NCBI GenBank assembly: GCA_009619095.1
Contig: WJOT01000027.1
Coordinates: 6,812-70,811, forward strand
Origin: Clostridia bacterium
Lineage (GTDB): Bacteria; UBA6262; WVXT01
Direction of reading: 5' to 3'
DNA: 64,000 nucleotides
The position numbers were made by a program, and so were the translations under genes. Shown here piece after piece: positions 43,138-45,181 of this stretch; the stretch's first letter is position 1, and each line of letters starts with the position of its first letter. The notes beneath the pieces were generated by a model. It had not been told where the DNA came from. It made no database searches and saw nothing but the letters and a program-made list of their open reading frames with translations.

Positions 43138-43286
43138 TTTTTAACCTTTCGGGGATTTATTTCAAAAAAATTATAGTAAATTGGCCTCATTTATGCAAGG
43201 GAGAAATCAAAGGTAGGAAGGGATATCTTTTACGGGCATAAAGCCCTGGTATAGTATTTAAGGAGTATTTATTATATAAAAAGCTC

Positions 43287-43315
43287 TTTACCCGGAGACC
43301 TCGGGAAGGTATAAT
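43287..43315 (+). promoter_or_regulatory. Sigma70-type promoter inside the IS left end
   Basis: TTTACC, 17-nt spacer, TATAAT (43310-43315). AAGGAGG lies 7 nt upstream of ATG 43351. Confidence 0.45.
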
Positions 43316-43350
43316 GTTGCAAGCAAAAACCACCTTCAAGGAGGTCTACC

Positions 43351-44757
43351 ATGGTAAAGAGCACTAAAAGTGTAGCACAACACCTCGGTGGAATCAAGGG
43401 AAATCTTTTCACCGAGAGGTTAGAATCGGCAAATCTGGAGAAGACAATGGTTGTTCCAATTGTCATTGGCAAGAACTCCCACAAGGCAATGATAGCCAAT
43501 TATTTCGGTAGTGTCTTACATAGCCCTTTTGAATTTGATAACTCAATGCCCGGGGTAAGTCTCTTCCATAAGCGGGTATCAAGCCTTGCCGCCCATTTAG
43601 GAACCGAACGCATATTAGTAGCTATGGAAGCTACCGGGCACTACTATCAAAATTTATCCCTCCACTTACAGGGGCTTGGATACGAAACCTATATACTTAA
43701 CCCTATATCTACTAAACGATGCCGTGAAGCAGTCCTGACCTGGTCCAAAACCGACGAAATAGACCTGGTCGCTATTGGTCAGGCTTTGATCAGTGCTTAT
43801 GCAACTCCCCTGCATCTTCAGGAGCCTGTCTGGGCCAGTCTTAAGATTATTGAGCGCCAGAGACGTTATCAAATTAAGCATCAAACCGCCTTGAAAAACA
43901 AGGCCCACGCAATCTTAGATTCTCTCTGTCCAGGAATATCCGAAGTGGATATATTTAAAGAAGGACATCTCTGGGATAATGCCTCTATGGACTTTTTCAT
44001 GAACTACTCTACCCCGACCCAGATTATTCGACTCGGCTCACAACGGGCTCTAAATTTCTTCCGCCGTCGTGGCCGCCGTCTCAACAAACTCCACGCTGAT
44101 CAACTTATCCAATGGGCCAGGAATGCTCTCAGCCATAAACAGCCAGAGACTCCAACTATGCAATATATACTATCTTTACTGCTTCACCAACTCTGCAGAG
44201 TTAACGAAGATATCCGCCTTTTGGAGATAGAAGTGGTCAAAAACCTGGTACAGATTCCACCTGTGCTTCTATTGACCATTGACTACATTGGTCCGGTAAC
44301 TGCCGGGGAATTTGGAGGAGAAATCAGCCCCCTATCCCAATACAGGTGTGCTCGCAGCGTAATCAAAGGTGCCGGACTGGATCCGGTTAGTTATCAGAGT
44401 TCTAAATATGAAGCCCCTGATCATCCCATTTCCAGAAAAGGCTCTTCTCCCCTACGCTATATCTCCATAGATATCGGTGACCGTCTAATGAAAAATAACG
44501 AACACTTCCGCTTTTTTGCCAACCGTCTAATTGGACGAGGCAAATCTGAAAACTGTGCCTGTGTAGCAGTAACTGGCAAATTTATTCGTATAGCTTACTG
44601 GATGCTTAAGGAACTTAAACCTTTTCGACCATCTACCGGTTTGGGTATTGCTAAAGATCCTTTGAGAAAAATCGAACAGTTTCTCATCCAGCGTAAAGCA
44701 CCAGAGCTAATTGATAGCTGTATTCAGTCAGCTAAGCACTACTTAAAAGGAGCATAA
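43351..44757 (+). CDS. IS110-family DEDD recombinase/transposase
   Basis: AMEATGHYY, SKTDEIDL, IDYIGPVTA, YQSSKYE..ISRKGSSPLRY align by eye with IS621 CIEATGTY, NKTDTVDA, IPGIGEKTSA, ESGSS..MSKAGHVSLRR. The first catalytic Asp position reads IGKNSHK (Asn). Alternative start M33 at 43447. Confidence 0.85.
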   Translation: MVKSTKSVAQHLGGIKGNLFTERLESANLEKTMVVPIVIGKNSHKAMIANYFGSVLHSPFEFDNSMPGVSLFHKRVSSLAAHLGTERILVAMEATGHYYQNLSLHLQGLGYETYILNPISTKRCREAVLTWSKTDEIDLVAIGQALISAYATPLHLQEPVWASLKIIERQRRYQIKHQTALKNKAHAILDSLCPGISEVDIFKEGHLWDNASMDFFMNYSTPTQIIRLGSQRALNFFRRRGRRLNKLHADQLIQWARNALSHKQPETPTMQYILSLLLHQLCRVNEDIRLLEIEVVKNLVQIPPVLLLTIDYIGPVTAGEFGGEISPLSQYRCARSVIKGAGLDPVSYQSSKYEAPDHPISRKGSSPLRYISIDIGDRLMKNNEHFRFFANRLIGRGKSENCACVAVTGKFIRIAYWMLKELKPFRPSTGLGIAKDPLRKIEQFLIQRKAPELIDSCIQSAKHYLKGA

Positions 44758-44827
44758 TAGAGAAATATACTTAACCTCAAAGATGCTGTAAAGTTCTTTC
44801 ACAGTAAGGGATTTGAATCTGTAAGAC

Positions 44828-44986
44828 GGGTAGGGGATTCCGCTAAAGCCCTGGAGGTTCTTTCCCCCAATATCTATCGTGGAGAAAACCTCGCTGTGTA
44901 GATTGGATACTCCTGCCCGCCTTCAACCCCGCTTCGGTACCTTGGAGGAGAACTCCGTATTACTGCCAGGATGGGGCTCTGAAGGC
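44828..44986 (+). ncRNA. Candidate bridge RNA / seekRNA in the IS 3' non-coding region
   Basis: Two adjacent stem / internal loop / stem modules. Module 1: outer helix 44828-36 with 44910-18, inner helix 44854-65 with 44881-92, 17+17-nt internal loop. The loop 5' strand contains TAAAGCCCT (left target plus core). The loop 3' strand contains GTGTAG (reverse complement of core plus right target). Module 2: helix 44919-30 with 44973-86; its loops carry GGTACCT and CCAG, which weakly match the IS ends. Confidence 0.5.
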
Positions 44987-45181
44987 ACTCTTTGTGAGCA
45001 GGATAGAACCCCATAAACCTGTTTTGCCGACTCTATTTCTCTTGTGAAAGAACAATCTATTAGCCGGGGAGAGTGCCAAAAGTATTTTTTAGCCCTTCCC
45101 CAGGAACAGTAGAGTTATCTTCTCAATTTTAAACTTGACTTTCCTAAGGTACTCTACACTACCAAAACCTTATAAAAAAAG

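What the first reader, a model, noticed from the sequence alone, without database searches (positions are those of the whole stretch)
43228..45163. IS110/IS1111-family element inserted precisely into one unit of the local palindromic repeat
The sequence left of the element ends ttttacgggcataaagccCT (43228-43247). The sequence right of it starts acactacc (45156-45163) and is preceded by CT (45154-45155). Joined, they reproduce ttttacgggcataaagccCTacactacc, which occurs uninterrupted at 61546-61573 and 61684-61711. That gives single-nucleotide boundaries (43248..45155, about 1908 bp), a CT core at both junctions and no terminal inverted repeats. This is the behaviour known for IS110-family elements that target REP-type repeats (for example IS621 and ISPpu9/10). 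It links the repeat family described below to a resident RNA-guided recombinase.
Basis: partly seen in the sequence, partly recalled or inferred. Interest (0 to 1): 0.75.

Follow-up and report, generated by a model that had tools for sequence, protein, structure and literature searches.

The report
Bridge-RNA insertion sequence in a REP
This is an ordinary kind of mobile element: a 1.9-kb IS110-family insertion sequence whose own guide RNA matches the small repeated hairpin it landed in. This copy carries a mutation that has probably killed its recombinase.

Summary
Joining the flanks at 43228-43247 and 45156-45163 gives a 28-mer that occurs intact at 61546 and 61684, with none expected by chance.

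The 1908 bp between them (43248-45155) is an IS110-family element:
- It encodes a 468-aa DEDD/Tnp recombinase.
- It has a CT core at both junctions and no terminal or subterminal inverted repeats.
- Joining its ends would create a TTGACT-17-TATAGT promoter.

Copies more than 92% identical sit at four other sites in public contigs. They have the same termini and the same target.

I located its bridge RNA downstream of the gene (44805-44990). One loop holds TAAAGCCCT and GTGTAG, which match 13/13 positions of the target. The second loop matches the element's own ends. Across 13-14 related elements these guides covary with each element's own flanks (0 of 20,000 permutations).

Caveats:
- The target is a lone REP hairpin, not a full 138-bp repeat unit.
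- The layout is IS1111-like, but the defining subterminal repeats are absent.
- This copy alone has D38V at the first catalytic aspartate, so it is probably inactive and movable only in trans.

Verdict: a new member of a known kind, of modest interest.

The parts
43228..43247 (+). Left half of the interrupted REP-type target (TTTTACGGGCATAAAGCC + core CT at 43246-43247). It contains the hairpin GGGC-ATAAA-GCCC.
   Evidence: The same left flank CGGGCATAAAGCCCT is present at four other insertion sites.
43248..45155 (+). The IS110-family insertion sequence, 1908 bp counting one copy of the CT core (GGTATAG...AAGGTACT-CT).
43248..43350 (+). Left end (LE), a 103-nt non-coding region. It starts GGTATAGT, and TATAGT at 43250-43255 is the -10 half of the junction promoter. 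It also holds an internal promoter-like site (TTTACC 43287-43292, TATAAT 43310-43315) inside a block conserved across the clade.
43351..44757 (+). Recombinase gene, 468 aa. PF01548 DEDD_Tnp_IS110 covers residues 39-194 and PF02371 Transposase_20 covers 306-376. E93, D135, D138 and S350 are present.
43462..43464 (+). Codon 38 is GTC (Val). Every other copy has GAC (Asp) and the wider clade has Glu. The position aligns with the D of the canonical G-I-D-V motif, the first D of DEDD (D11 of IS621). This is the probable inactivating mutation.
   Evidence: PMC11208158
43732..43734 (+). Codon 128 is GTC (Val). All other copies and 25/25 clade members have Gly. It is the second radical change specific to this copy, and its effect is unknown.
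44758..45155 (+). Right end (RE), a 398-nt non-coding region that holds the bridge RNA and the -35 half of the junction promoter.
44805..44990 (+). Bridge RNA core, with a target-binding domain followed by a donor-binding domain. It is the only match in the window to the covariance model built from the clade (164 bits).
44844..44852 (+). Left target guide (LTG) TAAAGCCCT. It is identical to the top strand of the left target plus core (43239-43247), so it can pair with the bottom strand.
44896..44901 (+). Right target guide (RTG) GTGTAG. It is the reverse complement of core plus right target (CT+ACAC, 45154-45159).
44936..44943 (+). Left donor guide (LDG) GGTACCTT. It matches the RE terminus GGTACTCT with one mismatch and one wobble. 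Its C/T position covaries with the RE terminus across the clade.
44964..44969 (+). Right donor guide (RDG) TGCCAG. It pairs with core plus LE start (CTGGTA), using one G-T wobble.
45135..45140 (+). TTGACT, the -35 half of the promoter that forms only when RE is joined to LE in a circle (TTGACT, 17 nt, TATAGT).
   Evidence: read from the sequence; conserved in 10 of 12 clade members
45154..45163 (+). Core CT (45154-45155) and the right half of the interrupted target, ACACTACC. The insertion lies inside CTAC, the complement of the GTAG head of the REP.
61546..61573 (+). Intact, unoccupied copy of the target REP. The perfect 13-nt guide match TAAAGCCCTACAC lies at 61557-61569.
61684..61711 (+). 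Second intact, unoccupied copy of the target REP. The perfect 13-nt guide match lies at 61695-61707.

Best explanation
Positions 43248-45155 are one copy of an IS110-family insertion sequence, a 'bridge recombinase' element. It inserted by site-specific recombination at a CT dinucleotide inside a REP-type hairpin that lies between a small multidrug-export gene and tRNA-Phe.

The element encodes a 468-aa DEDD/Tnp recombinase. Downstream of that gene, in its 398-nt right end, it encodes a two-loop bridge RNA of about 190 nt.
- The first loop carries TAAAGCCCT and GTGTAG. These pair with the two strands of the target around the CT.
- The second loop carries GGTACCTT and TGCCAG. These pair with the joined ends of the element.

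By analogy with IS621 and ISEc11, the element should excise as a circle. The RE-LE junction would then create a TTGACT-17-TATAGT promoter, and the recombinase-RNA complex would synapse the junction with a matching REP and exchange strands at CT. That process leaves no target duplication beyond the core.

What is shown here: the anatomy, the family assignment, repeated insertion at the same sequence, and guide-target and guide-donor complementarity with covariation across relatives.

What is inferred: transcription and processing of the RNA, circle formation, and the chemistry.

This copy alone carries D38V at the first catalytic aspartate, plus G128V. Its ends and guides are intact. It is therefore most likely a fixed copy that is no longer autonomous and could move only if an intact recombinase were supplied in trans.
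For: Family:
- Pfam DEDD_Tnp_IS110 (E 2.8e-22) and Transposase_20 (E 9.7e-10).
- The AlphaFold model has mean pLDDT 80.6. Its 11 best PDB matches are all IS621 or ISCro4 bridge-recombinase chains (E 3e-9 to 3e-8).

Boundaries and target:
- The 28-mer is intact twice elsewhere in the window.
- Five independent insertion sites of copies more than 92% identical share CGGGCATAAAGCC-CT|IS|CT-ACACTAC.
- The clade-wide termini are CT|GGTATA and AAGG[C/T]ACTCT|.

Bridge RNA:
- A conserved two-domain block lies in the RE of all clade members.
- RNAalifold predicts 31 pairs, 7 of them with compensatory changes.
- The LTG matches 9/9 and the RTG 6/6 in the window.
- Across 14 (LTG) and 13 (RTG) distinct elements, own-flank matches total 75/84 and 48/52. 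Cross-pair means are 3.45/6 and 1.99/4. None of 20,000 permutations reached the observed totals.
- The LDG C/T position covaries with the RE terminus, and the junction promoter is conserved in 10 of 12 elements.
- The polarity (5' side pairs with the bottom strand, 3' side with the top strand, core included) is the one described for IS621 (PMC11208160).

Inactivation:
- V38 is unique to this copy. Eight near-identical proteins and five loci have D, and 25/25 clade members have E.
- The position aligns with the GIDV motif and lies at the end of beta-strand 1 in the model.
- The Pfam alignment loses that position and about 8 bits.
- Mutation of D11 abolishes IS621 recombination (PMC11208158).
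- The allele is real. The identical protein at the same locus appears in three other assemblies and two NCBI records.
Against: - No expression, circle or empty-site data could be obtained, so transcription of the RNA and current mobility are untested.
- Donor-loop pairing is weaker than target-loop pairing: one mismatch plus wobbles, and only one covarying position.
- The NCBIfam 'IS110 family RNA-guided transposase' model scores 138.3 bits, just below its cut-off of 140.
- Rfam has no matching family.
- The ORF is intact, with only 2 non-synonymous and 4 synonymous changes specific to this copy. Decay is therefore at most very recent, and loss of activity rests on homology to IS621 D11, not on an assay.
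Confidence: 0.9

Rival explanations
1. The element is the same, but this copy is still an active, autonomous IS. On this reading D38V is tolerated, for example because another acidic residue or the partner protomer supplies the metal ligand.
For: The ORF is full length. The ends, guides and internal promoter-like block are intact, and the LE is identical to that of L005. Only two amino-acid changes are specific to this copy. Two perfect targets remain unoccupied nearby, which is uninformative either way.
Against: Position 38 is acidic in every other relative examined (33 of 33). It aligns with the first D of the DEDD motif. Mutation of the equivalent D11 abolishes IS621 activity in vitro and in bacteria (PMC11208158). 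The V38 allele is seen only at this one locus.
Confidence: 0.22
2. The conserved REP-like flanks are part of the element, so the true boundaries lie further out. The intact 28-mers at 61.5 kb would then be abutted ends or excision scars, not naive targets.
For: The flanks are conserved for about 15 nt on the left and about 10 nt on the right at all five insertion sites. That is longer than the 13 nt covered by the guides.
Against: Homology among 45-54%-identical relatives stops exactly at CT|GGTATA and ACTCT|. Beyond those points each relative has a different flank, and that flank matches its own LTG and RTG. The extra conserved bases are simply the rest of a REP hairpin. That hairpin belongs to a larger family of GTAG-type REPs in this genome, and most of those are unrelated to the IS. 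The junction promoter forms only with the inner boundaries.
Confidence: 0.02
3. The D38V copy is retained for a host or element function. It could act as a catalytically inert, RNA-guided protein that binds REPs, or as a regulator or competitor of active copies, and would not be merely decaying.
For: The ORF and the bridge RNA are intact despite a catalytic-site change. The allele is fixed at this locus in several samples. The changes specific to this copy are 2 non-synonymous and 4 synonymous.
Against: The numbers are far too small to show purifying selection. A recently inactivated IS copy looks exactly like this. No second dead copy or conserved dead lineage was found: all other cluster members keep D38.
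Confidence: 0.04

Closest known systems
ISPa11 (IS1111 family, Pseudomonas aeruginosa; PMC11187229)
   Same: It has a DEDD/Tnp recombinase, and its guide ('seek') RNA is encoded downstream of the gene. It inserts at a specific position in REP sequences. Two short RNA segments are complementary to opposite strands of the target.
   Different: ISPa11 belongs to the IS1111 family, whose members are defined by subterminal inverted repeats, and none was found here. I could not compare the protein directly. The best matches to cultured-organism plasmids are below 30% identity. This recombinase is about 470 aa and has an N-terminal extension of about 35 aa.
IS621 (IS110 group, E. coli; PMC11208160, PMC11208158)
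   Same: It targets REPs, has a CT core and lacks inverted repeats. Its bridge RNA has two loops, with the 5' guide pairing to the bottom strand (9 nt) and the 3' guide to the top strand, and the core is included in both. A sigma-70 promoter forms at the circle junction. The fold matches (Foldseek E about 5e-9). A mismatch at LD position 7 is tolerated there and occurs naturally here.
   Different: In IS621 the bridge RNA lies in the long LE, upstream of the gene. Here the LE is 103 nt and the RNA lies in the 398-nt RE. Sequence similarity is very low (phmmer E 1.3e-5, 17-18% identity). IS621 has 326 aa and this protein has 468. The RTG is 6 nt here and 4 nt in IS621.
ISPpu9 / ISPpu10 (IS110 group, Pseudomonas putida; PMC12288879, bioRxiv 10.64898/2026.03.19.712850)
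   Same: They are IS110-family elements without inverted repeats. They insert into REPs/BIMEs at a fixed dinucleotide and form circles.
   Different: In ISPpu9 the bridge RNA is expressed with the tnp mRNA from a strong native promoter. Its recombination dinucleotide is AG, and it makes no junction promoter. The downstream Ssr9 RNA of ISPpu9 is a separate MITE-like module, not the guide.
IS110-type elements with a 3' non-coding region and no or short subterminal repeats (a minority noted in the ISfinder survey of PMC11187229)
   Same: They show exactly this combination of features: a long non-coding region downstream of tnp, with subterminal inverted repeats absent or short.
   Different: Those elements are only mentioned as exceptions, and no guide RNA or target is described for them in the text I read. 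I could not check whether any is related to this clade.

Membership tests
IS110 family (broad sense, bridge/seekRNA recombinase elements) | RuvC-like DEDD domain (PF01548) | tested here: met
   PF01548 E 2.8e-22, residues 39-194. E93, D135 and D138 are present. The first D is Val in this copy only; relatives have D or E.
IS110 family (broad sense, bridge/seekRNA recombinase elements) | C-terminal Tnp domain (PF02371) with the conserved nucleophilic Ser | tested here: met
   PF02371 E 9.7e-10. S350 in the motif YQS aligns with IS621 S241.
IS110 family (broad sense, bridge/seekRNA recombinase elements) | Overall fold like solved bridge recombinases | tested here: met
   The top 11 Foldseek PDB hits are IS621 and ISCro4 chains, with E 3e-9 to 3e-8 and TM (target-normalised) about 0.6. 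The model has pLDDT 80.6.
IS110 family (broad sense, bridge/seekRNA recombinase elements) | Site-specific insertion at a short core, with no terminal inverted repeats and no target duplication beyond the core | tested here: met
   There are five independent sites with the same target and CT core. The intact target is present in the window. No inverted repeats were found.
IS110 family (broad sense, bridge/seekRNA recombinase elements) | Non-coding RNA with two loops complementary to both strands of the target and of the joined ends | tested here: met
   The sequence shows LTG 9/9 and RTG 6/6, LDG 7/9 and RDG 6/7 counting wobbles. Covariation with the flanks gave 0 of 20,000 permutations. The structure is conserved, with 7 compensatory pairs. 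Expression and binding are not testable here.
IS110 family (broad sense, bridge/seekRNA recombinase elements) | Circular intermediate that creates a junction promoter | not testable with these tools
   At sequence level, TTGACT-17-TATAGT would form across RE-LE, and this is conserved in 10 of 12 clade members. No reads were available to detect a circle.
IS110 family (broad sense, bridge/seekRNA recombinase elements) | NCBIfam NF033542 'IS110 family RNA-guided transposase' at its curated cut-off | tested here: not met
   138.3 bits against a cut-off of 140, covering residues 39-422. This is a marginal miss, consistent with a divergent subfamily and the V38 change.
IS1111 group | Subterminal inverted repeats of 7-17 bp | tested here: not met
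   I locally aligned the first 50 nt against the reverse complement of the last 50 nt in 12 clade members. No score exceeded shuffled controls (p 0.14-0.99), and the best match in the window was 5 nt. Only a 2-3-bp TA/CTA...TAG symmetry flanks the donor.
IS1111 group | Short LE, long RE, and guide RNA downstream of tnp | tested here: met
   LE is 103 nt and RE is 398 nt. The covariance-model hit at 44805-44990 lies downstream of the stop codon at 44757.
IS1111 group | Transposase related over its full length to that of IS1111 | not tested
   No IS1111 or ISfinder reference sequence was available in the tools. The nearest cultured-organism relatives are below 33% identity and annotated only as 'IS110 family'.
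IS110 group (narrow sense) | Guide RNA in a long LE upstream of tnp | tested here: not met
   The LE is only 103 nt and has no guide-like matches. The RNA is in the RE.
IS110 group (narrow sense) | No subterminal inverted repeats, or only very short ones | tested here: met
REP (repetitive extragenic palindromic) elements, as the target | Short intergenic hairpin with a GTAG/CTAC head, present in many copies and often paired in inverted orientation | tested here: met
   The target reads (minus strand) GGTAGTGTAG-GGC-TTTAT-GCC. It is intergenic and has 3 copies in the window. Its two intact copies (61546-61573, 61684-61711) lie in inverted pairs inside 138-bp units. Several other GTAG-plus-hairpin families occur in the window. 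Genome-wide copy number was not tested.

The most novel reading that the evidence does not exclude
This element may represent a distinct lineage of bridge recombinases known only from uncultured organisms. Its features are a protein of about 470 aa with a conserved N-terminal extension, a bridge RNA downstream of the gene without the subterminal repeats that define IS1111, a 9-nt LTG and a 6-nt RTG. On the most novel reading, the D38V copy in this window is not decaying. It would be kept as a naturally 'dead' RNA-guided protein that binds REPs, or as a non-autonomous element moved in trans.
Probability: 0.05. Interest if true: 0.6.

Novelty: new member of a known kind. Interest (0 to 1): 0.35.

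Why it matters
- It gives a cleanly resolved natural example of bridge-RNA targeting in an uncultured lineage. The element boundaries, the target, both guide loops and the junction promoter are all readable from sequence and backed by covariation among about a dozen relatives.
- The clade adds a divergent orthologue family to the set of bridge recombinases that could be tested as programmable recombinases. It is at most 33% identical to anything found in cultured genomes and is absent from Rfam.
- It shows that the two textbook criteria for IS1111 (downstream RNA and subterminal repeats) can be uncoupled.
- For annotating this genome, the REP family at 61.5 kb should be read as a landing site for the element.
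- The local copy should probably be annotated as non-functional.

Tried and rejected
- **Rfam.** A search of 43000-45400 at E up to 1 returned only tRNA-Phe and a spurious antisense hit. No bridge-RNA family matched.
- **Minimum-energy fold.** The single-sequence fold of the whole RE (z = -3.0) pairs the donor guides with each other and was not used as the structure. The comparative alignment was used instead.
- **Empty site.** Looking up the neighbouring 232-aa gene product found nothing on record.
- **Genome collection.** Only one close clade member turned up, a Latescibacterota MAG at 52% identity. The source genome itself was not found.
- **Plasmid collection.** Only generic 'IS110 family transposase' hits below 30% identity were returned, so no named ISfinder relative could be assigned.
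- **First regular expressions for the RE terminus.** They picked up an internal look-alike (AAGGCACTCT, 44982-44991) and were corrected.
- **LTG register.** It is not identical in all relatives: L098 and L100 fit one position later. I allowed two registers in the permutation test and did not claim a single fixed geometry.
- **G128V.** I considered it a second catalytic hit and rejected that. Position 128 is conserved only within the clade and is variable in the wider family.
- **IS1111 membership.** Rejected because subterminal inverted repeats are absent.
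Full report
**Observation**

The joined 28-mer is present without a mismatch at 61546-61573 and 61684-61711. It occurs nowhere else with up to three mismatches, and 100 shuffles gave no match. The identity stops at exactly 28 nt. Outside it, the insertion site does not resemble the 138-bp composite palindromic units at 61442-61717. The interrupted sequence is therefore a solitary REP-type hairpin. 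On the minus strand it reads GGTAGTGTAG-GGC-TTTAT-GCC, that is, a GTAG head followed by a small palindrome. It is identical to the right arm of those units. The left arm carries a different hairpin (GCCCTTTATGGGC) and differs from the guide-matched 13-mer at two positions.

**What lies between the flanks**

One long ORF (43351-44757, 468 aa) matches both Pfam domains of IS110-family recombinases: DEDD_Tnp_IS110 (E 2.8e-22) and Transposase_20 (E 9.7e-10). The NCBIfam model 'IS110 family RNA-guided transposase' covers residues 39-422 at 138.3 bits, just below its cut-off of 140. By sequence, the only solved relatives are the bridge recombinases ISCro4 and IS621, and both are distant (E 3e-9 and 1.3e-5). 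An AlphaFold model built on 26 relatives has mean pLDDT 80.6. Its eleven best PDB matches are all chains of those two enzymes, followed by Nop5-type proteins and RuvC. The protein is identical to GenBank MBA7509761.1 ('Clostridia bacterium') and MQY65010.1 (subsurface metagenome).

**Boundaries**

Three public contigs carry the same insertion at the same locus. Four others carry copies 92-98% identical in different surroundings: L005, L006, L007/L009 and L090. In each, homology to the window runs from about 43229-43232 to about 45162-45165. This span is the element plus the REP halves. The flanks read ...CGGGCATAAAGCC-CT|GGTATAG... and ...AAGGTACT-CT|ACACTAC..., and beyond that the sequences are unrelated.

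The protein search found 54 clusters of about 470-aa relatives at 44-54% identity, almost all from metagenomes. I fetched loci for about a dozen of these. All start CT|GGTATA and end TTGACTTTCyyAAGG[C/T]ACTCT|, and each has different flanks. No terminal or subterminal inverted repeat appears in any of 12 members.

**The guide RNA**

The left non-coding end is 103 nt and the right one is 398 nt. This is the layout reported for IS1111-type elements, whose bridge/seek RNA lies downstream of the gene (PMC11208160; PMC11187229). [quoted passage not shown] TAAAGCCCT (44844-44852) is identical to the top strand of the left target plus core. GTGTAG (44896-44901) is the reverse complement of CT+ACAC. 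They flank a stem-loop and are closed by the helix CGGGTAGGGG/CTCCTGCCCG. This is the geometry and strand polarity of the IS621 target-binding loop.

A second domain follows. It runs CCTTCAACCCCGCTTC-GGTACCTT-GGAG..CTCC-G-TATTAC-TGCCAG-GAT-GGGGCTCTGAAGG. GGTACCTT matches the right-end terminus GGTACTCT, with one mismatch at the position next to the core and one wobble. TGCCAG pairs with CTGGTA at the left-end start.

The whole block is conserved in the right end of every clade member. RNAalifold predicts 31 pairs, and 7 of them have compensatory changes. A covariance model built from this alignment finds exactly one copy in the window (164 bits). It also finds weaker matches downstream of the gene in relatives about 30% identical. 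Rfam has nothing comparable.

**Test of RNA guidance**

In each relative I read the two guide positions and the actual flanks. The right guide predicts the four bases after CT exactly in 10 of 13 distinct elements:
- ACAC (window)
- ATAC (L010, L092, L096, L170)
- ATGC (L094, L171)
- ATCA (L098)
- ATCC (L099)
- GTTT (L100)

Of the remaining three, L172 and L176 match at 3 of 4 bases and L095 at 2 of 4. The left guide matches 4-6 of the six bases before CT. Summed own-pair scores are 75/84 (left guide) and 48/52 (right guide). Cross-pair means are 3.45/6 and 1.99/4. None of 20,000 permutations of guide-flank assignments reached the observed totals. In the donor loop, the single variable base (GG[C/T]AC) changes together with the right-end terminus in the window group and in L100. 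The left-guide register differs by one position in two relatives, so I do not claim a fixed geometry.

**Junction promoter**

Joining the right end to the left end gives TTGACT, a 17-nt spacer (TTCCTAAGGTACTCTGG) and TATAGT. A -35/17/-10 arrangement of this kind is kept in 10 of 12 relatives. Such junction promoters are known for IS110 and IS1111 elements. An internal promoter-like site (TTTACC-17-TATAAT, 43287-43315) lies in a conserved block of the left end. Whether the RNA is made by read-through or from its own promoter is not known.

**State of this copy**

Residue 38 is Val here (GTC, 43462-43464). It is Asp (GAC) in all eight other proteins of the 90% cluster that I read and in the five other loci. 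It is Glu in 25 of 25 more distant clade members. In an alignment with ordinary IS110-family proteins, this column is the D of the G-I-D-V motif. It lies at the end of the first beta-strand of the model. Pfam aligns D38 and E38 relatives from profile position 3, but aligns the window protein only from position 5, with about 8 bits less than the D38 copies of its own 90% cluster.

This residue is the first of the DEDD motif. In IS621 (D11) it coordinates the catalytic Mg2+, and its mutation abolishes recombination (PMC11208158). The only other amino-acid change specific to this copy is G128V, at a position that is invariant in the clade but variable in the wider family.

The left end is identical to that of L005 and the guides are unchanged. 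Three non-coding substitutions are specific to this copy: 44858, 45096 and 45115. The V38 allele is seen only at this locus, in several assemblies. I conclude that this copy is probably catalytically dead and fixed, and that it could still serve as a substrate for an intact enzyme. This is an inference from homology, which I put at about 0.75.

**Classification and novelty**

The element is a member of the IS110 family in the broad sense. It combines the IS1111-type layout with the absence of the subterminal repeats that define that group. Siddiquee et al. note such exceptions in ISfinder. REP targeting is established for IS621, ISPpu9/10 and ISPa11. Nothing here departs from the known mechanism, so this is a new, divergent member of a known kind.

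**What could not be done**

I could not do the following:
- recover an orthologous empty site;
- look for circles or transcripts;
- compare the element with ISfinder;
- find the rest of the genome.

Noticed in passing
window 37203-37245, 37897-37939, 41021-41063, 42356-42398; also 34780-34857 and 42305-42382: There are four copies of the 3' 43 nt or so of tRNA-Thr(CGT), but only two of them belong to complete tRNA genes (41027-41099, 42361-42435). A 78-nt repeat lies next to one of them. The pattern resembles att-site duplications left by elements integrated at tRNA-Thr.
   Followed up: no
window 44982-44991: AAGGCACTCT sits at the 3' foot of the donor-binding domain. It is 9/10 identical to the true right terminus (AAGGTACTCT, 45146-45155) and identical to the terminus of other clade members. 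It occurs only in the window subgroup and could be a pseudo-end or a coincidence.
   Followed up: partly
window about 45063-45104; same position in L010, L092, L094, L095, L098, L100: A conserved hairpin with an A-rich loop lies between the bridge RNA and the right terminus. Examples are CCTCCTG-AAAAAAA..-CAGGAGG in relatives and GGGGAGAG...CTTCCCC here. The stem changes in a compensatory way between relatives, and its role is unknown.
   Followed up: no
L101 about 1856 onward: In this relative the right end is interrupted just after the target-binding loop. The interrupting sequence is a second partial copy, consisting of the LE-proximal block plus the start of the recombinase gene. This is either a nested or tandem insertion or an assembly chimera.
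   Followed up: no
L174-L177 flanks: The P0025 element sits in at least three different sites, all within runs of a short CTGGAT(N)C-type repeat. Its guides (TGGATCC / ATCTAG) match that motif, with a G-U wobble in the right guide. This is a second example in the clade of targeting a repeated sequence.
   Followed up: partly
window 43351-43455 (residues 1-35) and clade alignment A1: The clade has a conserved N-terminal extension of about 35 aa (M-x-K-S...G-G-x-K-G-N) and a C-terminal tail of about 40 aa. Both are absent from IS621 and ISCro4. Residues 1-18 of the extension are modelled with low confidence.
   Followed up: no
window 61442-61717, 51531-51716, 5849-5915, 52990-53056: Composite palindromic units share outer arms (GGATGAAGGGATAGTTGCAGGAG ... 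CTCCGATAACTATCCCTTCATCC) but enclose different inner GTAG-type REP hairpins. This looks like a modular REP/BIME-like system, and only one inner hairpin type matches this IS.
   Followed up: partly
window 45315-47393 (minus strand): This 692-aa ORF next to tRNA-Phe has no Pfam hit at E up to 0.001. That is unusual for a protein of this size.
   Followed up: no
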